From the NCBI GenBank assembly GCA_965279525.1, contig CBDIIB010000005.1, positions 1,440,001-1,504,000 on the forward strand: DNA of 64,000 nucleotides, read 5' to 3'. This document shows, one piece after another, positions 49,966-56,164 of this stretch. This DNA is from Tagaea sp. Its GTDB lineage: Bacteria; Pseudomonadota; Alphaproteobacteria; CACIAM-22H2. Position 1 is the stretch's first letter. The number at the start of each line of letters is the position of its first letter. The notes below the pieces were generated by a model. It was not told the origin of the DNA. It did not search any database and saw nothing but the letters and a program-made list of their open reading frames with translations. Both the position numbers and the translations under genes were made by a program.

Positions 49966-51228
49966 CTAGCGGCGCGGGACGCGGGCTTTCTTCGGTTTCG
50001 TGAACGTCGCGACCAGTTCGAGGTGGCCGGTCCACAGGAACTGGTCCACGGGGACCACGCGCGCCAGCGTATAGCCGCCATCCACCAGCACGCGCGCGTC
50101 GCGCGCGAAGCTCGCCGGATTGCACGACACCGCCACGACGACGGGCACCGACGAGGCGGCCAGATACGTCGCCTGTTCGCGCGCACCCTCGCGCGGCGGA
50201 TCGAAGATCGCCGCGTCGTATTCGTCGAGCTCTTCCACCAGCAGCGGCCGGCGTTCGAGATCGCGCGCCTCGCACGTCACGCGGCCCGCGCGGAAGCCGG
50301 CGCGGGCCCCGGCCTGCATGGCGGCACTGGCGGCGGCATCGCCCTCGACCGCGTGCACGCGACCGGTGAGCGGGAACGAGAACGTGCCGAGCCCGGCATA
50401 GAGATCGACGATGCGCTTGGCGCGGCCGACCGAGGCCGCGATCTCCGACGCGATCGCAAGCTCGGCGGGGCGCGCGGCCTGCAGGAAGGCGCCGGGTGGC
50501 GGCACCACTTCGACCGTGCCGAACGACACGCGCGGGCTTTCGTGCAGCACGACGATTTCGGGTTCCTCGCCCGTCTCGCGCCGCCAGGCGATGCGCACGA
50601 TGCCGTTGGCTGCGGCGAAGTCGGCGAGCGAGGCGCGCTTGCGCGCGTCGGGGCTGCGCCCGGTGAGCAAGAGGTCGATGCCGTTGTCGGCGGCCGTCAC
50701 GTGGATGTCGAAGGTTTCGGCGGGGCGCAGGAAATCGACAAGGAACGCGCGCAGTGCCGGCAGCAGCGACACGATCTTCGGCAGCAGCACGAGACACGAA
50801 TCGATGTCGACGAGTTCGGTGCTTCCCTCGGTGTGGAAGCCGAGCGTCACGCCGCCTTGCGTGCGCAGGGCCGAAAGCTCCGCGCGCCGGCGTGTACCAC
50901 CGGCGATGCGCAGCATCGGCGCGGGTGCGATGTCGAGACCGCGCGCGGACAGCGCCGCGACGAGCAGCCCCTGCTTCCACGCGACGTAAGAGGCTTCGGC
51001 CAGATGCTGCACGGCGCAGCCGCCGCACGCATGGAAATGCGGGCACGGCGGATCGACGCGGTCGGGCGCCTTGGTCAGGATCTCGACCGCGCGCGCGCGG
51101 TCCTTGCCGAAGCGCTGCGCGCGCACGCGCTCGCCGGGCAGGGCGCCGGGCACGAAAAGCGGGCCGTCGGCGACGCCGTCGCCGCTTGCGCCCAGCTTGC
51201 GGATTTCAAGTTCGACCGTTTCTTCCAT
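49966..51228 (-). CDS. rlmD: RNA (uracil-C5)-methyltransferase, RlmD/TrmA family
   Basis: Fe-S motif CPHFHACGGC, FLQ, DLYAGLGTF, DPPREG, VSCNP and DQF...HLE. Confidence 0.88.
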   Translation of the reverse strand: MEETVELEIRKLGASGDGVADGPLFVPGALPGERVRAQRFGKDRARAVEILTKAPDRVDPPCPHFHACGGCAVQHLAEASYVAWKQGLLVAALSARGLDIAPAPMLRIAGGTRRRAELSALRTQGGVTLGFHTEGSTELVDIDSCLVLLPKIVSLLPALRAFLVDFLRPAETFDIHVTAADNGIDLLLTGRSPDARKRASLADFAAANGIVRIAWRRETGEEPEIVVLHESPRVSFGTVEVVPPPGAFLQAARPAELAIASEIAASVGRAKRIVDLYAGLGTFSFPLTGRVHAVEGDAAASAAMQAGARAGFRAGRVTCEARDLERRPLLVEELDEYDAAIFDPPREGAREQATYLAASSVPVVVAVSCNPASFARDARVLVDGGYTLARVVPVDQFLWTGHLELVATFTKPKKARVPRR

Positions 51229-51565
51229 GGGGGGCGAGGTGTAGCCGCGATCCGGGCGGCGGCGAAGCGAAACCTCTGCCGGCCCCGGGACTTGACAGGT
51301 TTTGCCCGGCGGCCCCGGTTTTGCCGCGACCCGACCGCGTCCCGGCCGGCCGAGGGCGGATTACCAAATGAAATCAATGGCCGACGCGATGGGATGGGAA
51401 AGGCGACTCGGCCCCCGACGCGAGGCCGCGACCCCGAGCCATTTCCCTCAACCTATTGAAATAACTTGGAATACCAAATTTCCCAAAATCCGATTGGCGG
51501 GGGGGGAGGGGGCGTGTTACGCAAAAACCGTCAGGAAAGCGAAGTCTTCATAGCCTTCGCGCCGT

Positions 51566-51735
51566 GTTGTCCGGGCGGGACATCAGGCTCCGACGTGCCG
51601 ATGGGGTGCCGGCGGTCTTCGCGAGGGGGCCGTCGGCACCACCTCGCCCCAAATCCACAAAAAATCTCCCAAAAATGAAGAGGCGCCAGGGGCGATCTTG
51701 CGATCGGCCGTTGTCCGGGCGGGACAAAGGGCTCC
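51566..51735. repeat. 26-nt imperfect direct repeat containing a hairpin (51566-51591 and 51710-51735)
   Basis: GTTGTCCGGGCGGGACA-tca-GGCTCC versus GTTGTCCGGGCGGGACA-aag-GGCTCC (23/26 identical). Confidence 0.85.
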
Positions 51736-52490
51736 CTGACGCCTCGCGAGGACCGTCGAAGCGGGCGTGCACGCCGCGCATCCGACACCACCGACACCCC
51801 GCTCTCGCGGACCGCCGGCCGCCCCATGGCAGCCAAAAACCCGGGTCTTCCCTCGGGGGGCCTGCTTCGCACGTCCGGTCAGGCCCTGGTCCGCCCGATT
51901 CCGTCCGCGTCCCCCCGACGAGGGCTCCGGCGGCCACGCGCGGCCATCCAGAACCCGAACCCGAGACGTCCGACCCTTGCCTGCAAACGCGGTCCCAGAC
52001 CTGACCCGGGCCTCGCGCGAGCTTCGATCGACGGCGCTTTGAGCACCTGCCTTTCGTGCCTCGCAGCCGGTCCGCCGGTCGCGGGTTCCTGAACCCCTGT
52101 GGTCCGCCCCGCCGTCACCGCCGTACCCGCCGATCCCTTGCGGGACCCTCGTGACCCCGACCGTCGGCCTGGATCCCCGCGCCCGCGCGGATCCGTCGAC
52201 GCCGTCCCTTCCCGCTGCACCGGCCTGTCCCCAGGGGAACCGGCCGGCCGTCTTGAAGGGAATGGAGTTGCCACCTTCCGCCCGGCTTGCGCCGTGCTTC
52301 CGGCGACCGCTCCGGCGCAACGCCCCGACCCCGTCCTTCCCGCGCCGCCACCCTTTCGGGGCCGGCTCCTGCCAGTGGATCGCGTCCTAGCTACCGGACA
52401 CGCTGGAGAAGGATCGCTGCCGTCTTGTCGCGCCTCGCTTTCGCTTACCGGAAACGATGGTCTCAAAGCCGCGCATCGCCGCCAATCCCA
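51672..52490 (-). ncRNA. Candidate large structured non-coding RNA (~800 nt), family unknown
   Basis: No credible ORF. The minus strand is G-rich with several GNRA-capped hairpins and helices that need G.U pairs on that strand only. A 12-bp closing helix is followed by a U-run. The 5' end is approximate. Confidence 0.55.
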
Positions 52491-52508
52491 ATCGCCCGCG
52501 CACGGTCA

Positions 52509-52575
52509 GAATCTTGTTGATGGAATCCCGCGTTGATCACAATCCACACACAGGCGATCCACAGGTCTGTCCACA
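52509..52575. promoter_or_regulatory. Cluster of DnaA-box-like 9-mers and GANTC sites
   Basis: CAATCCACA (52540), CGATCCACA (52555) and CTGTCCACA (52567) in the same orientation. GAATC at 52509 and 52523. Confidence 0.45.
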
Positions 52576-52728
52576 GCGTTTTGTTCGCAGCCGCGGTAAG
52601 CTTCTCGCCCGACGCGCCAAACCCATCAATTGACGCGCCGGTATGCAGGGTCTAAATCCTTAAGCCTGCCGGGAAGAATTGCGAAGGCCGTCGAATACCG
52701 GCCACGCAATCAGGAAGACCGAGGGGCC

Positions 52729-53148
52729 ATGGCCGCAGAATCCAAGAGTTCCGCCAAACCGCATCCGCGACCGCTATCGCCGCACCTGCAGGTCTACCGC
52801 CCGCAGATGACGTCGATCCTGTCGATCACCCACCGCGCCACCGGCGTGGCGCTGGCGGTCGGCACGCTGATGCTGACGTGCTGGCTGGTCGCCGCGGCGA
52901 CGGGCGAAACGCCCTTCGCGCGCGTCAACGCGTTCCTAGGATCGGGCATCGGCATGGTGCTGCTGTTCGGCTGGTCGGTGGCGCTTTTTTATCACCTCGC
53001 CAACGGCATCCGGCACCTGTTCTGGGATGCGGGCTACGGCTTCGACCTGCCGACGATGGAAAAATCGGGCTGGGCCGTAATCGCGTTCACGGCCGCCGCG
53101 ACGATCCTCGCCTGGGCGCTGGGCCTTGCCGTGCTGGGAGGGCGCTAG
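52729..53148 (+). CDS. sdhC: Succinate dehydrogenase cytochrome b556 subunit
   Basis: RPLSPHLQVY, SITHRATG and HLANGIRHLFWD. Confidence 0.96.
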   Translation: MAAESKSSAKPHPRPLSPHLQVYRPQMTSILSITHRATGVALAVGTLMLTCWLVAAATGETPFARVNAFLGSGIGMVLLFGWSVALFYHLANGIRHLFWDAGYGFDLPTMEKSGWAVIAFTAAATILAWALGLAVLGGR

Positions 53149-53150
53149 AC

Positions 53151-53543
53151 ATGGACACCGGAAAATCGCTCCGCTCGCCGCTCGGGCGCGCGCGCGGTCT
53201 TGGCTCCGCCAAGGACGGCACGCATCACTGGTGGGCGCAGCGCGTCACGGCGATCGCGCTCATTCCGCTGACGGTGTGGTTCGTCGCCAGCGTCATCAGT
53301 CTCGTCGGCGCACCGCTGATCGAGCTGCAGGCGTGGGCCGCCTCGCCGGTCGTCGCCGTACTGCTGATGATCCTCGTCGTCGCGACATTCCAGCACGCGC
53401 GGCTGGGTGTGCAGGTCGTGATCGAGGACTATGTCCATCATGAAGGGCTGAAGGTCGCCTTGCTGCTCGCGGTCAACGGGGCCTCGTTGCTGTTCGGCGC
53501 CGTCGCCGTCTTCTCGATCCTCAAGCTCGCTTTCGGAGGCTGA
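53151..53543 (+). CDS. sdhD: Succinate dehydrogenase membrane anchor subunit
   Basis: GLGSAKDGTHHWWAQR and HARLGVQVVIEDY. Confidence 0.96.
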   Translation: MDTGKSLRSPLGRARGLGSAKDGTHHWWAQRVTAIALIPLTVWFVASVISLVGAPLIELQAWAASPVVAVLLMILVVATFQHARLGVQVVIEDYVHHEGLKVALLLAVNGASLLFGAVAVFSILKLAFGG

Positions 53544-53546
53544 TCC

Positions 53547-55361
53547 ATGCCCGATGCTTCGTCCCCGTCGCTGGGCGGACAGGCCTACAAGGTCGTCGAC
53601 CACCAGTACGACGTCGTCGTCGTGGGAGCCGGCGGTGCGGGCCTGCGCGCCACGTTCGGCATGGCGGCCAAGGGCCTGAAGACCGCGTGCATCTCGAAGG
53701 TGTTCCCGACGCGCAGCCACACGGTTGCCGCACAGGGCGGGATCTCGGCGGCGCTGGGCAACATGGGTGCCGATGACTGGCGCTGGCACATGTACGACAC
53801 GGTCAAGGGTTCCGACTGGCTCGGCGACCAGGATTCGATCGAGTACATGTGCAAGGAAGCCATCCCGGCGATCATCGAGCTCGAGCATTACGGCGTGCCG
53901 TTCAGCCGCACGACCGAGGGCAAGATCTACCAGCGCCCGTTCGGCGGCATGACCACCGATTACGGCAAGGGTGTCGCCCAGCGCACCTGCGCTGCCGCCG
54001 ACCGCACCGGCCACGCGATCCTGCACACGCTCTACCAGCAGAGCCTCAAGAACAACGCCGAGTTCTTCATCGAGTATTTCGCCCTCGACCTCATCATGGA
54101 CGAGGAAGGCCAGTGCCGCGGCGTGATGGCGTGGAACCTGCTGGACGGCACGCTGCACCGCTTCCACGCACACCTCGTCGCACTCGCCACCGGCGGCTAC
54201 GGGCGTGCCTATTTCTCGGCGACCTCGGCGCACACCTGCACGGGCGACGGCAACGCGATGGCGCTGCGCGCCGGATTGCCGCTGCAGGACATGGAATTCA
54301 TCCAGTTCCACCCGACCGGCATCTACGGGGCGGGCTGCCTGATCACCGAAGGCTCGCGCGGCGAAGGCGGGTACCTCACCAACTCCAACGGCGAGCGCTT
54401 CATGGAGCGCTATGCGCCGTCGGCCAAGGATCTCGCCTCGCGCGACGTCGTCAGCCGCGCGATGACGATGGAGATCCGCGAGGGCCGCGGCGTGGGCAAG
54501 GAGAAGGACCATATCCATCTCCATCTCGAGCATCTCGACGCCAAGCTGCTGCACGAGCGCCTGCCCGGCATTTCGGAAACCGCGAAGATCTTCGCCAATG
54601 TCGACGTGACGAAGGAGCCGATCCCCGTCCTGCCGACCGTGCACTACAACATGGGCGGCATCCCGACCAACCACCGCTGCGAAGTCGTCACGATGAAGAA
54701 CGGCACCGCCACCGTGGTGCCCGGCCTGATGGCGATCGGCGAGGCGGCGTGCGTGTCGGTGCATGGCGCGAACCGTCTGGGTTCCAACTCGCTGCTCGAT
54801 CTCGTCGTGTTCGGGCGCGCGGCCGCGATCCGGGCGGCCGAGCTCGTCCAGCCCGGCACGCCGCACAAGCCACTGCCCAAGAATGCGGGCGATTCGTGCC
54901 TCGCGCGCTTCGACAAGATGCGCCACGCCAAGGGTCCCGCACCCACGGCCGTTCTGCGCGCCGAGATGCAGCGCATCATGCAGAACAACTGTGCGGTCTA
55001 CCGCACGGGCGACGTGCTCGCCGAAGGCTCGAAACTGATCGCGCAGACCTTCGCCAAGAACGGCGACATCGGCGTCACCGACCGCTCGCTGGTGTGGAAC
55101 TCCGACCTTGTCGAGTCGCTCGAGTACGACAACCTGATCGCGCAGGCGGTGGTCACGCTGGAGTCGGCGTTGAACCGCAAGGAAAGCCGTGGTGCGCACG
55201 CCCGCGAGGACTATCCCAACCGCGACGACAAGGACTGGATGAAGCACTCGATCGCGTGGCTCGACGCCAAGGGCAATGTCGATTTCGCCTACCGCCCCGT
55301 CGTGCTGACCTCGCTGACCAACGAAGTGCAGTCCTTCCCGCCCAAGGCGCGCGTCTACTGA
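53547..55361 (+). CDS. sdhA: Succinate dehydrogenase flavoprotein subunit
   Basis: [16 protein letters not shown] (covalent FAD His), QFHPTG, HYNMGG and [10 protein letters not shown]. Confidence 0.98.
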
Positions 55362-55387: not shown

Positions 55388-56164
55388 ATGGCCGAATTCA
55401 CGCTTCCCGCCAACTCGAAGGTCCAGACCGGCAAGACGTTCCCGCCGCCGGCCGGCGCCACGCGGACCAAGACGTTCAAGATCTACCGCTGGGACCCGGA
55501 CACGGGTGCGAACCCGCGCGTCGATGTCTACACGCTCGATCTCGACCAGACCGCGCCGATGGTTCTCGACGCGCTGATCAAGATCAAGAACGAGATCGAC
55601 CCGACGCTGACCTTCCGCCGCTCGTGCCGCGAGGGCGTGTGCGGGTCGTGCGCGATGAACATCGACGGCACCAACACGCTCGCCTGCACCAAGGGCATCG
55701 ACGAGTGTGCCGGCGACGTGAAGATCTATCCCTTGCCGCACATGCCGGTCATCAAGGACCTGGTGCCCGATCTCAGCCAGGCCTACGCGCAGCTGCGCTC
55801 GATCGAGCCGTGGCTGAAGAGCGAGACGCCGCCGCCCGACCGCGAGCGCCCGCAGAGCCCGGAAGAGCGCGCCAAGCTCGACGGCATGTGGGAATGCATC
55901 CTGTGCTTCTGCTGCTCGACCTCGTGCCCGAGCTACTGGTGGAACGCCGACCGCTATCTGGGGCCGGCCGTGCTGCTGCAGGCCTATCGCTGGATCGCCG
56001 ACAGCCGCGACGAGGCGACGGGCGAACGGCTCGACAATCTCGAGGATCCGTTCCGCCTCTATCGCTGCCACACGATCATGAACTGCACGAAGACGTGCCC
56101 GAAGAGCCTCAACCCCGCCAAGGCGATCGCCGAGATCAAGAAGCTGATGATCGCGCGCCAGTAA
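55388..56164 (+). CDS. sdhB: Succinate dehydrogenase iron-sulfur subunit
   Basis: [22 protein letters not shown] and [12 protein letters not shown]. Confidence 0.98.

What the first reader, a model, noticed from the sequence alone, without database searches (positions are those of the whole stretch)
51530..51735. Possible convergent partner sRNA with a hairpin complementary to the large RNA's 3' domain
Seen: just beyond the end of the candidate large RNA is a 16-bp hairpin, GGTGCCGGCGGTCTTC-GCGA-GGGGGCCGTCGGCACC (51605-51640). Its four G.U pairs and GNRA loop work only on the PLUS strand, the opposite polarity. Upstream of it is GTTGTCCGGGCGGGACATCAGGCTCC (51566-51591), a 23/26 direct repeat of 51710-51735, which lies inside the large RNA's terminal domain. 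Inference: a plus-strand ~110-nt RNA would carry UGUCC-GGGCG-GGACA while the minus-strand RNA carries UGUCC-CGCCC-GGACA. These loops are complementary and could form a kissing complex extending to a ~26-bp duplex, giving a two-RNA system encoded tail-to-tail. Alternative: the repeat is a duplicated protein-binding site on DNA or on one RNA.
Basis: partly seen in the sequence, partly recalled or inferred. Interest (0 to 1): 0.7.

Follow-up and report, generated by a model that had tools for sequence, protein, structure and literature searches.

The report
Small RNA facing a large RNA
A conserved gene for a small RNA of about 118 bases sits tail-to-tail with a gene for a large structured RNA and carries a mirror copy of that RNA's end piece, so the small RNA probably pairs with and controls the large one.

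Summary
In detail: the 16-bp GNRA-capped hairpin (51605-51640) and the 23/26 direct repeat (51566-51591 / 51710-51735) are there. Window 51485-51645 is best read as a promoter plus a ~118-nt plus-strand small RNA, made of a three-way junction, an invariant GCCGAUGG linker and a terminal hairpin. G.U pairs and folding energy place it on the plus strand. In sister genera the terminal hairpin is followed by a U-tail. It converges on a ~750-765-nt structured RNA on the minus strand (about 52430 to 51680). RNA-library contigs from three studies hold that large RNA. It ends in a terminator-like three-way junction containing the second repeat copy.

The small RNA is a direct DNA duplicate of that end domain, read from the other strand, so the two RNAs are complementary. 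Contiguous complementarity is 17-20 nt in this genus. In most sister genera it is a further 19-21 nt at the small RNA's 5' end. The pair occurs in 13 of 15 genera of the order. In other alphaproteobacterial families the same promoter motif abuts the large RNA's end.

Pairing itself is not shown, and expression of the small RNA is not shown. There are exceptions: two species keep the small RNA without the large one, and two genera have lost the loop match. Neither RNA is in Rfam 15.

The parts
51485..51527 (+). Promoter-like conserved block of the small RNA gene. It contains an A-tract (AAAATCC, 51485-51491), a -35-like TTGGCG (51494-51499), a G-rich spacer whose length but not sequence is conserved, and an extended -10-like TGTTACGCA (51515-51523).
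   Evidence: Conservation starts abruptly at 51485 in 29 distinct sequences. The distance from the AAAT anchor to GTCAGG is 42-45 nt in 17 of 19 loci of several genera; in 2 loci the search expression found no anchor. Its role as a promoter is inferred. The simple sigma-70 scan found none.
51528..51645 (+). Predicted small RNA, about 118 nt. The 5' end is inferred near 51528-51530. The 3' end is inferred just after the hairpin; this genus has no U-tail.
   Evidence: Covariance model R1 matches 51527-51646 at 138 bits. The alignment fold gives -49.9 on the plus strand against -27.1 on the minus strand, and the single-sequence energy is lower on plus in 28 of 29. 97.7% of cells are paired and the covariation score is 0.177 against 0.103 in shuffles, with 0 of 500 shuffles reaching it.
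51529..51595 (+). Three-way junction of the small RNA. P1 is CGUCAGG (51529-51535) with CCGACG (51590-51595). The X hairpin is GCGAAG...CUUCGC (51539-51560). The Y stem-loop is GCC/GGC (51561-51563 / 51586-51588) enclosing UGUCC-GGGCG-GGACA (51568-51582), with the loop at 51573-51577. This is repeat copy 1.
   Evidence: RNAalifold structure. The first P1 pair is C-G in 19, U-A in 9 and C.A in 1. The sixth X pair is G-C in 17, A-U in 3 and unpaired in 9. Y stems covary across genera while the loop is kept.
51597..51604 (+). Single-stranded linker GCCGAUGG. CCGAUGG is invariant in the genus and kept in most sister genera.
   Evidence: Invariant columns in 29 of 29 sequences. Present in 5 of the 6 sister-genus matches shown. 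Function unknown.
51605..51640 (+). Terminal 16-bp hairpin (HP3) with a GNRA loop. This is the hairpin of the finding.
   Evidence: 8 of 16 pair positions carry G.U cells that are valid only on the plus strand. One position, the outermost pair, has A.C in 7 sequences. One further position reads C.A in 3 sequences; I take this as an alignment shift at the GAAA loops. The loops are GCGA, GCAA and GAAA. In sister genera a U-run follows the hairpin.
51646..51679 (.). Variable spacer. It is A-rich on the plus strand, so it is the U-rich tail of the large RNA on the minus strand.
   Evidence: Not conserved in sequence or length: 31-121 nt in most loci, 443 nt in L122 and 730-1170 nt in L026, L069 and L096. 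The T-rich run follows the closing helix on the minus strand in 25 of 25 sequences.
51680..51745 (-). 3'-terminal three-way junction, or terminator, of the large RNA. A 12-bp closing helix (GAGGCGUCAGGG / CCCUGGCGCCUC) encloses the Y' stem-loop (UUGUCC-CGCCC-GGACAA, 51727 down to 51711, loop 51721-51717; repeat copy 2) and the X' hairpin CGAUC-GCAA-GAUCG (51706 down to 51693).
   Evidence: RNAalifold on 25 sequences. X' loops are GCAA, GAAA or GCGA, which are GNRA only on the minus strand. One closing pair is U-A in 17 and U.G in 8, and the U.G is valid only on the minus strand. An RNA-library contig starts at 51680.
51680..52431 (-). Large structured non-coding RNA, about 750-765 nt. This is the partner or target.
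   Evidence: Contigs of three RNA libraries from three studies cover 51680/51706 to 52416-52427. One whole 717-nt contig equals 51706-52422, and one contig end at 52427 is followed by adapter letters. 22 distinct sequences measure 762-808 nt. There are 140 consensus pairs, 47 with compensatory changes. The strand test favours minus. There is no Rfam match and no Pfam match for the ORFs.
51791..51831 (-). Hairpin inside the large RNA that resembles, in the same sense, the small RNA's linker plus HP3.
   Evidence: Inverted repeat I1 joins 51596-51636 with 51791-51831: 41 nt, 73% complementary on DNA. On the minus strand the hairpin has GNRA loops GAGA, GAAA and GCAA. I saw the resemblance only in this genus and did not follow it up.

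Best explanation
Window 51485-51645 holds a promoter and a gene for a ~118-nt small RNA read on the plus strand. It converges on a ~750-765-nt structured non-coding RNA read on the minus strand, with about 35 nt between their ends.

The small RNA gene is a diverged direct DNA duplicate of the large RNA's 3'-terminal three-way junction (closing helix, X hairpin, Y hairpin). The duplicate includes a promoter motif that, in several other alphaproteobacterial families, lies directly against that 3' domain and points into it. Because the copy is read from the opposite strand, the small RNA is antisense-like to the large RNA's terminator domain.

Proposed mechanism (inferred): the GGGCG loop of the small RNA's Y hairpin docks on the CGCCC loop of the large RNA's Y' hairpin. 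Pairing then spreads to 17-20 bp in this genus. In most sister genera the small RNA's 5' end (19-21 nt) also invades the 3' strand of the terminator helix and the X' hairpin. This unfolds the protective 3' structure and so sets 3'-end formation, stability or amount of the large RNA.

Shown by comparison: both genes, their opposite polarity, their folds, and the conserved complementarity. Inferred: transcription start, 3' end, pairing and its consequence. The small RNA probably has a further role, because two species keep it without the large RNA.
For: 1. The small RNA gene is real and lies on the plus strand.
- The gap region matched in 20 of 20 genomes of the genus, and the alignment shows the block as its best-conserved part.
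- On 29 sequences the fold has 36 pairs with 97.7% of cells paired. The covariation score is 0.177 against 0.103, and 0 of 500 shuffles reach it.
- In HP3, 8 pair positions carry G.U that is valid only on the plus strand.
- The alignment fold gives -49.9 on plus against -27.1 on minus, and single-sequence folds are lower on plus in 28 of 29.
- Model R1 finds full-length matches in 6 genomes of 4 other genera. In those, HP3 is followed by a U-run.
- The promoter anchor lies 42-45 nt from GTCAGG in 17 of 19 loci.

2. The large RNA is on the minus strand.
- The alignment fold gives -152.9 against -99.6, and single-sequence folds are lower on minus in 22 of 22.
- GNRA loops closed by stems number 158 against 34.
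- The terminator-like junction is followed by a U-rich tail.
- RNA-library contigs cover it.

3. Complementarity is kept.
- Of the 18 loci of 11 genera scored, 17 show a contiguous run of 14-21 nt (Watson-Crick plus G.U) with the last ~130 nt of their own large RNA; L131 (G021) has only 11 nt at the Y site beside its 20-nt 5' run.
- In sister genera Y stems covary (GUCC/GGAC, AUCC/GGAU, GCCC/GGGC, CGUCC/GGACG) while the GGGCG loop stays.
- In family f73 the small RNA's 5' end follows that family's own X sequence.
- In G063 the large RNA has no detectable small RNA, and there both complementary segments have diverged.

4. Cofolding of the small RNA with the large RNA's 3' domain gains -17 to -45 kcal/mol. 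Shuffled small RNAs gain a mean of -4 to -10. The real value beats all 30 shuffles in 6 of 8 loci.

5. The same promoter motif lies 42-44 nt from the module, on the opposite strand, in families f176 (2 genomes), f143, f105, f77 and f82.
Against: - G006 and G008 (94% and 96% complete) keep an intact small RNA about 160-170 nt from the sdhC start region but have no large RNA anywhere. Pairing with the large RNA therefore cannot be its only role.
- In G060 the small RNA's Y hairpin has no GGGCG loop, although the large RNA keeps CGCCC.
- In G059 the large RNA's Y' loop differs, although the small RNA keeps GGGCG, and the genes lie 1.9 kb apart.
- The flanks of the two repeat copies vary independently. 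The invariant core therefore gives no true covariation within the genus.
- Two of the five measures are not above shuffles: pairs with change on both sides (35 of 500 shuffles reach the observed value) and further pair types (269 of 500).
- The three-way junction itself is strand-neutral: the fold is lower on plus in 15 of 29.
- HP3 has no U-tail in this genus, and the simple scans found no promoter or terminator.
- In families f130, f51, f69 and f173 no partner was seen within 1.3 kb.
- In 2 of 8 loci the cofolding gain did not beat the best shuffle.
- Related genomes are not independent samples.
Confidence: 0.5

Rival explanations
1. These are two independent RNAs that do not interact. The small RNA is an ordinary trans-acting regulator, or a protein-binding RNA, with other targets. 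Its likeness to the large RNA's end is only the trace of an old duplication, and each hairpin loop is kept for its own reasons.
For: - The small RNA is kept intact where the large RNA is absent, in G006 and G008.
- The loop match is lost in G060 and G059 although both RNAs persist.
- The invariant GCCGAUGG linker has no complement in the large RNA's end domain.
- Large RNAs of families f130, f51, f69 and f173 show no partner within 1.3 kb.
Against: - An old duplicate under no joint constraint should decay. Yet runs of 14-21 nt persist in 17 of the 18 loci scored, while the rest of the small RNA diverges.
- Read from opposite strands the two copies are different RNA sequences. One shared RNA-binding factor therefore cannot explain why both stay invariant.
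- In f73 the seed follows that family's own target sequence.
- The 3' domain diverges where no small RNA is found, in G063.
Confidence: 0.25
2. The repeats act on DNA. The palindrome TGTCC-N5-GGACA, and in sister genera the 19-nt repeat starting GTCAGG, are binding sites for a regulator that controls the two convergent genes. RNA complementarity is then a by-product.
For: - Both copies always lie in the same orientation on one DNA strand.
- The core is a perfect 5+5 palindrome, and both stems and the spacer are invariant in the genus.
- Sister genera carry three direct copies of the 19-nt motif.
Against: - In sister genera the half-sites of copy 1 change in a hairpin-preserving way (AUCC/GGAU, GCCC/GGGC, UCCUC/GAGGA, GUUC/GAGC). 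Meanwhile the non-palindromic centre stays. That is the pattern of an RNA stem-loop, not of a dimeric DNA site.
- Y' in g31 has a change that gives U.G on the minus strand but C.A on the plus strand.
- The distance between the copies ranges from 140 nt to 1.9 kb.
- Both copies lie inside folded, transcribed domains.
Confidence: 0.1
3. The plus-strand transcript is not a discrete small RNA. It is the start of a longer read-through RNA that runs antisense across the end of the large RNA, giving cis-antisense control or transcriptional interference. Alternatively it is an old leader of the sdhCDAB operon.
For: - HP3 has no U-tail in this genus.
- In five other families the same promoter motif abuts the large RNA's end and would give a fully overlapping antisense RNA.
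- In G006 and G008 the block lies directly upstream of sdhC, in the same direction.
Against: - Sister genera have clear U-tailed terminators right after HP3.
- sdhC has its own conserved promoter-like element downstream of the block in all loci aligned, including G006 and G008.
- No conserved complementarity to the sdhC leader was found in the 10 of 15 loci that could be scored.
- The spacer after HP3 is unconserved and holds insertions of up to 1.9 kb.
Confidence: 0.15

Closest known systems
Antisense RNAs of plasmid copy-number control (RNAI/RNAII of ColE1, CopA/CopT of R1); recalled, not searched here
   Same: A small, highly folded RNA recognises its target by loop-loop kissing between complementary hairpin loops. 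Pairing then spreads into a longer duplex. Stems and loops are frozen in both partners.
   Different: Those RNAs are read from the same DNA as their target, overlap it and match it perfectly. Their target is a primer or a messenger leader. Here the two genes do not overlap in this genus. Complementarity comes from a neighbouring direct DNA repeat and is partial (17-20 nt). The target is the terminator domain of a large non-coding RNA. No plasmid is involved.
Convergent type I toxin-antitoxin pairs whose RNAs meet at their 3' ends (txpA/RatA and bsrG/SR4 of Bacillus subtilis); recalled, not searched here
   Same: The genes lie tail-to-tail. The small RNA pairs with the 3' end of the partner RNA. 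The expected outcome is cleavage or destabilisation of the partner.
   Different: Those pairs overlap physically and the target encodes a small toxic peptide. Here I found no conserved reading frame: Pfam gave 0 families for 5 frames, single-base insertions and deletions occur between close relatives, and the alignment has many short gaps. The target is a ~760-nt structured RNA.
Large ornate bacterial non-coding RNAs (OLE, GOLLD, ROOL)
   Same: The partner RNA is of similar size, highly structured and rich in GNRA loops. It is abundant in RNA libraries and its function is unknown.
   Different: There is no Rfam match to any of them. It occurs in Alphaproteobacteria next to sdhC, not in prophages or Firmicutes. 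As far as I recall, none of those classes has a dedicated complementary small RNA. The one paper surfaced (PMC12286853, abstract only) describes RNA-only homo-oligomers.
Target-derived origin of antisense regulators (plant microRNA genes born from duplicated target fragments); recalled
   Same: The regulator appears to be a duplicated piece of its own target, read in the opposite sense.
   Different: This is a bacterial case. The duplicate is direct on the DNA and has its own opposing promoter. The link is by analogy only.

Membership tests
Any Rfam 15 RNA family | A covariance-model match at or near the family's gathering score | tested here: not met
   The window at gathering scores gave only one tRNA, elsewhere. 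Window 51000-53400 at E up to 10 gave three weak unrelated hits, none on the small RNA or the end domain. Five sister-genus loci at E up to 1 gave two weak unrelated hits.
Cis-encoded (overlapping) antisense RNA | The transcript overlaps its target on the opposite strand of the same DNA | tested here: not met
   In this window the predicted small RNA ends near 51645 and the large RNA's contigs start at 51680. Sister genera have separate terminators 31-1900 nt apart. In families f176, f143, f105, f77 and f82 the promoter motif abuts the module, so the overlapping form may exist there. Transcript ends were not measured.
Trans-acting base-pairing small RNA with an intrinsic terminator (Hfq-type architecture) | Own promoter, a single-stranded or loop seed, and a terminal GC-rich hairpin followed by a U-run | tested here: inconclusive
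   The promoter-like block and the terminal hairpin are present. The U-run is absent in this genus but present in most sister genera. Chaperone binding cannot be tested here.
Kissing-loop antisense pair | Complementary hairpin loops in the two RNAs that stay complementary across relatives | tested here: inconclusive
   The loops are GGGCG and CGCCC in 11 genera with both RNAs. The match is lost in G060 (small RNA loop changed) and G059 (large RNA loop changed). No double change that restores the loop match was seen, so the pattern is conservation rather than covariation.
Type I toxin-antitoxin | The target RNA encodes a small, conserved, usually hydrophobic toxic peptide | tested here: inconclusive
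   No Pfam family for the 5 longest frames. Single-base insertions and deletions occur between near-identical contigs, and the 22-sequence alignment has many short gaps. Short frames under 40 codons were not examined one by one.
Intrinsic terminator (for the hairpin 51605-51640) | A GC-rich stem-loop followed directly by a U-run on the transcribed strand | tested here: not met
   In the window the hairpin is followed by ACCUCGCCCC, and the terminator scan found 0 sites. The homologous hairpin in sister genera does meet the definition.

The most novel reading that the evidence does not exclude
The small RNA and the large RNA form an old two-part system of Alphaproteobacteria. In it, a new widespread large structured RNA is governed at its terminator domain by an RNA born from a duplicate of that domain. 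In some families this partner would be an overlapping antisense transcript; in this order it is a free-standing convergent small RNA. A bolder version is that the two RNAs assemble into one working particle, the small RNA clamping the large RNA's 3' end, rather than one merely repressing the other.
Probability: 0.3. Interest if true: 0.85.

Novelty: new variant of a known kind. Interest (0 to 1): 0.7.

Why it matters
Large structured bacterial RNAs of unknown function are rare, and their roles are a long-standing open question. Here one such RNA comes with a dedicated small partner complementary to its end domain. It is abundant enough to be assembled from small environmental RNA libraries. 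It is present in 14 of 15 genera of its order, and its end module turns up in other alphaproteobacterial families. The partner gives an experimental handle. Removing or over-producing a 118-nt RNA, or mutating five loop bases, should change the large RNA if the model holds, and that may reveal what the large RNA does. The locus also looks like a clear bacterial case of a regulator made by duplicating a piece of its own target. Overlapping and free-standing forms appear to survive in different families.

Tried and rejected
- **Rfam.** No family matches either RNA.
- **RNA libraries.** The three metatranscriptome contig sets laid (X9, X12, X5) do not cover 51485-51645. These are contigs without strand information. 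A ~118-nt RNA is easily lost in such libraries, so this says nothing either way about the small RNA's expression.
- **Coding reading.** Five frames in the gap, including a 70-codon frame over the small RNA, have no Pfam family. A 25-codon frame starting at the AUG in the linker is broken by a 1-nt insertion in relatives. Both readings were rejected.
- **sdhC leader or regulator.** sdhC has its own conserved promoter-like element. No conserved complementarity between the small RNA and the sdhC leader was found in the 10 of 15 loci where a leader could be defined. A 15-nt run in the window is not conserved.
- **Whole-length duplexfold.** It gave -142.5 against -127.2 (sd 4.0) for shuffles. This is a poor test in GC-rich RNA because it ignores internal structure, so cofolding replaced it.
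- **Simple scans.** The promoter and terminator scan found 0 of each in 51200-52760. The terminal junction has too long a loop for that scan.
- **Earlier notes of this scan.** Nothing on this locus.
- **Literature.** 'Tagaea' gave 11 papers, none on RNA by title or abstract start. 'large noncoding RNA', GOLLD, ROOL and Alphaproteobacteria gave 6 papers, 5 listed, none relevant. I read listings only. My statement that these RNAs are not described in print rests on these two searches and on Rfam. Supplements were not available.
- **Passing ideas dropped.** RNase P, tmRNA and 6S RNA were considered and dropped for lack of any Rfam hit.

Full report
**Setting.** The finding lies in a 1.4-kb gene-free gap. 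On one side is a rumA-like methyltransferase gene (49966-51228, minus strand). On the other is the succinate dehydrogenase operon: sdhC from about 52732, sdhA at 53547-55361 and sdhB at 55388-56164, all on the plus strand. Record titles of matching genomes name the organism group as Tagaea, an alphaproteobacterial genus known mostly from metagenome-assembled genomes.

- The hairpin GGTGCCGGCGGTCTTC-GCGA-GGGGGCCGTCGGCACC is at 51605-51640.
- The 26-nt direct repeat is at 51566-51591 and 51710-51735, with 23 of 26 identical.
- Its 16-nt core is exact in both copies and occurs nowhere else exactly in the 4.35-Mb genome.
- The 15-nt core is exact in 34 of 50 genomes of the order, always as one or two copies on one strand. 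The reversed control pattern gave no hit.

**The large RNA is real and lies on the minus strand.**
- Contigs from three RNA libraries of three different studies cover only 51680/51706 to 52416-52427. One complete 717-nt contig equals 51706-52422. One contig end at 52427 runs into adapter letters. Contigs carry no strand information.
- Twenty-two distinct sequences from the genus measure 762-808 nt.
- Their consensus fold on the minus strand has 140 pairs, 47 with compensatory changes.
- A strand test favours minus. The alignment fold gives -152.9 against -99.6 kcal/mol. Single-sequence folds are lower on minus in 22 of 22. Stem-closed GNRA loops number 158 against 34.
- The RNA ends in a three-way junction at 51745 down to 51680. 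A 12-bp closing helix encloses a Y' stem-loop (repeat copy 2, loop CGCCC) and an X' hairpin. The X' loop is GCAA, GAAA or GCGA, which are GNRA only on the minus strand. One closing pair alternates U-A with U.G, which is valid only on the minus strand. A U-rich tail follows in 25 of 25 sequences.
- No Rfam family matches. The long frames have no Pfam family.

**The small RNA gene.**
- The gap region matched in 20 of 20 genomes of the genus and in 0 of 20 outside it. The alignment shows that 51485-51645 is its best-conserved part.
- In 29 distinct sequences, conservation begins abruptly at 51485. It starts with an A-tract, a -35-like TTGGCG and a spacer conserved in length but not in sequence. 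An extended -10-like TGTTACGCA follows, and then GTCAGG at 51530.
- The consensus fold on the plus strand has three parts. The first is a three-way junction: P1 (CGUCAGG with CCGACG), an X hairpin, and a Y stem-loop that is repeat copy 1 with loop GGGCG. The second is an invariant single-stranded GCCGAUGG. The third is the 16-bp hairpin of the finding.
- On 24 distinct rows, 97.7% of cells are paired against 94.0% in shuffles. The covariation score is 0.177 against 0.103. For both, 0 of 500 shuffles reach the observed value.
- Two other measures are not above shuffles. For pairs changed on both sides, 35 of 500 shuffles reach the observed value. For further pair types, 269 of 500 do.
- Polarity comes from the hairpin. 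Eight of its 16 pair positions carry G.U that would be mismatches on the minus strand. Only the outermost pair shows the reverse pattern. The loops are always GNRA on the plus strand.
- The alignment fold gives -49.9 on plus against -27.1 on minus, and single folds are lower on plus in 28 of 29. The three-way junction alone is strand-neutral, at 15 of 29.

**Sister genera settle the gene's existence.**
- The covariance model built from the genus found full-length matches in six genomes of four other genera.
- Motif searches and reading of the loci extended this to 13 of 15 genera of the order.
- In 17 of 19 loci read, the promoter-like anchor lies 42-45 nt before GTCAGG. In the other 2 my search expression found no anchor.
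- In most sister genera the terminal hairpin is followed by a U-run, so it is an ordinary intrinsic terminator on the plus-equivalent strand. This genus has lost the U-run, so how its small RNA ends is open.
- The large RNA's end module is present in 14 of 15 genera. The single hit in the fifteenth, g22 (G047), looks like chance.
- The genes are always convergent, 31 nt to 1.9 kb apart, and lie next to sdhC in most loci checked.

**How the two RNAs relate.**
- On the DNA, the small RNA's junction and the large RNA's end junction are collinear direct repeats. Each has a closing strand containing CGTCAGG, then an X hairpin, a Y hairpin and the closing strand.
- Read from opposite strands, they are complementary.
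- I scored contiguous complementarity (Watson-Crick plus G.U) between each small RNA and the last ~130 nt of its own large RNA in 18 loci of 11 genera.
  - In this genus the run is 17-20 nt over the Y hairpin.
  - In nine sister genera there is a 19-21-nt run between the first 20 nt of the small RNA and positions 14-33 from the large RNA's 3' end. That target is the 3' strand of the terminator helix plus the 3' arm of X'.
  - In most of these there is also a 13-18-nt run at Y. One genus (g26) has only 11 nt at the 5' end but 14 at Y.
- Y stems of the small RNA covary among genera while the GGGCG loop stays. That is the behaviour of an RNA hairpin with a sequence-specific loop, not of a palindromic DNA site.
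- Cofolding predicts a net gain of -17 to -45 kcal/mol. Shuffled small RNAs gain a mean of -4 to -10. The real value beats all 30 shuffles in 6 of 8 loci.

**Exceptions.**
- G006 and G008 keep an intact small RNA close to the sdhC promoter region. They have no large RNA at the locus or elsewhere. Their nearest relatives have the large RNA, so these look like two separate losses.
- In G060 the small RNA's Y hairpin lacks GGGCG. Its 21-nt 5' match remains.
- In G059 the large RNA's Y' loop is different and the genes are 1.9 kb apart. The 5' motif and its target remain.
- In G063 the large RNA has no detectable small RNA, and both complementary segments have diverged.
- Within the genus the flanks of the two repeat copies vary independently, so the proposed 26-bp duplex is not conserved.
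- These cases mean that pairing with the large RNA cannot be the small RNA's only role. They also mean that the loop match is conserved rather than shown to covary.

**Beyond the order.**
- A pattern for the end module hit 23 of 401 sampled genomes of the class. Three were in the own family. Of the 20 outside it, I fetched 18 loci from 17 genomes. I set aside the hits in G295, G225 and G098 as chance.
- In the great majority of these loci the flank adjoining the module is richer in G on the strand that ends in the module, as in this genus.
- In families f176 (2 genomes), f143, f105, f77 and f82, the same promoter-like motif as in the small RNA gene lies 42-44 nt from the module on the opposite strand. 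The motif-to-GTCAGG distance is the same as in the small RNA genes. I read this partly by eye. It would give an overlapping antisense transcript.
- Family f73 has a free-standing small RNA gene 174 nt away. Its 5' end follows that family's own X sequence.
- Families f130, f51, f69 and f173 showed no partner within 1.3 kb.
- The simplest history, which is inferred, is that the free-standing small RNA gene is a duplicate of an antisense promoter together with the end module.

**Verdict.** Its picture of a convergent partner small RNA with a complementary hairpin is largely borne out by comparative evidence, and the picture gains a second, longer pairing site in sister genera. Still missing are direct evidence that the small RNA is made, that the two RNAs bind, and what binding does. 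The mechanism I commit to is loop docking followed by invasion of the terminator junction, which would control the large RNA's 3' end or stability. I hold the pairing model at about 0.5.

Noticed in passing
window 51680-52431 (minus strand): A structured non-coding RNA of about 750-765 nt that is absent from Rfam 15. RNA-library contigs of three studies hold it. Its end module is present in 14 of 15 genera of the order and in at least ten other alphaproteobacterial families. It usually lies next to sdhC within the order.
   Followed up: partly
window 52558-52564 and 52570-52576: Two direct TCCACAG repeats, reminiscent of DnaA boxes, lie about 100 nt upstream of the large RNA's promoter region. 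They are conserved in the loci that have the large RNA and missing in G006 and G008, which lack it.
   Followed up: no
window 52440-52470 (minus strand): A conserved block (TTTGAGACC ... GGTAAGCGAAAGCGAG on the minus strand) lies just upstream of the large RNA's 5' end. It has a -35-like TTGAGA but no good -10, so another sigma factor or 5' processing may be involved.
   Followed up: no
window 52650-52680: An sdhC promoter-like element, TTGACG-N16-CTAAAT, lies about 90 nt before the start codon. It is conserved in all loci aligned, including those without the large RNA.
   Followed up: partly
L026/L061 (G001), L069, L096: Insertions of 730-1170 nt separate the small RNA gene from the large RNA's end. 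In G001 the start of the end module is duplicated on both sides of the insert, and a plus-strand hairpin with a T-run follows the first copy.
   Followed up: no
L133 (G065) and L023 (G020), spacer between the two RNA genes: Short tandem repeats fill the spacer. L133 has about four copies of a ~21-nt unit and L023 has several copies of a ~17-nt unit.
   Followed up: no
window 51791-51831 and 51596-51636: The small RNA's linker and terminal hairpin resemble, in the same sense, a hairpin inside the large RNA. This appears as a 41-nt inverted DNA repeat, 73% complementary. I saw it only in this genus, and its origin is unexplained.
   Followed up: partly
window 51500-51507: The promoter-like spacer of this genome has one more G than the other members of the genus, making it 18 nt instead of 17.
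   Followed up: no
L150 and L151 (G290, family f73): This genome carries two copies of the large RNA's end module on different contigs. A small RNA gene was seen beside only one of them.
   Followed up: no
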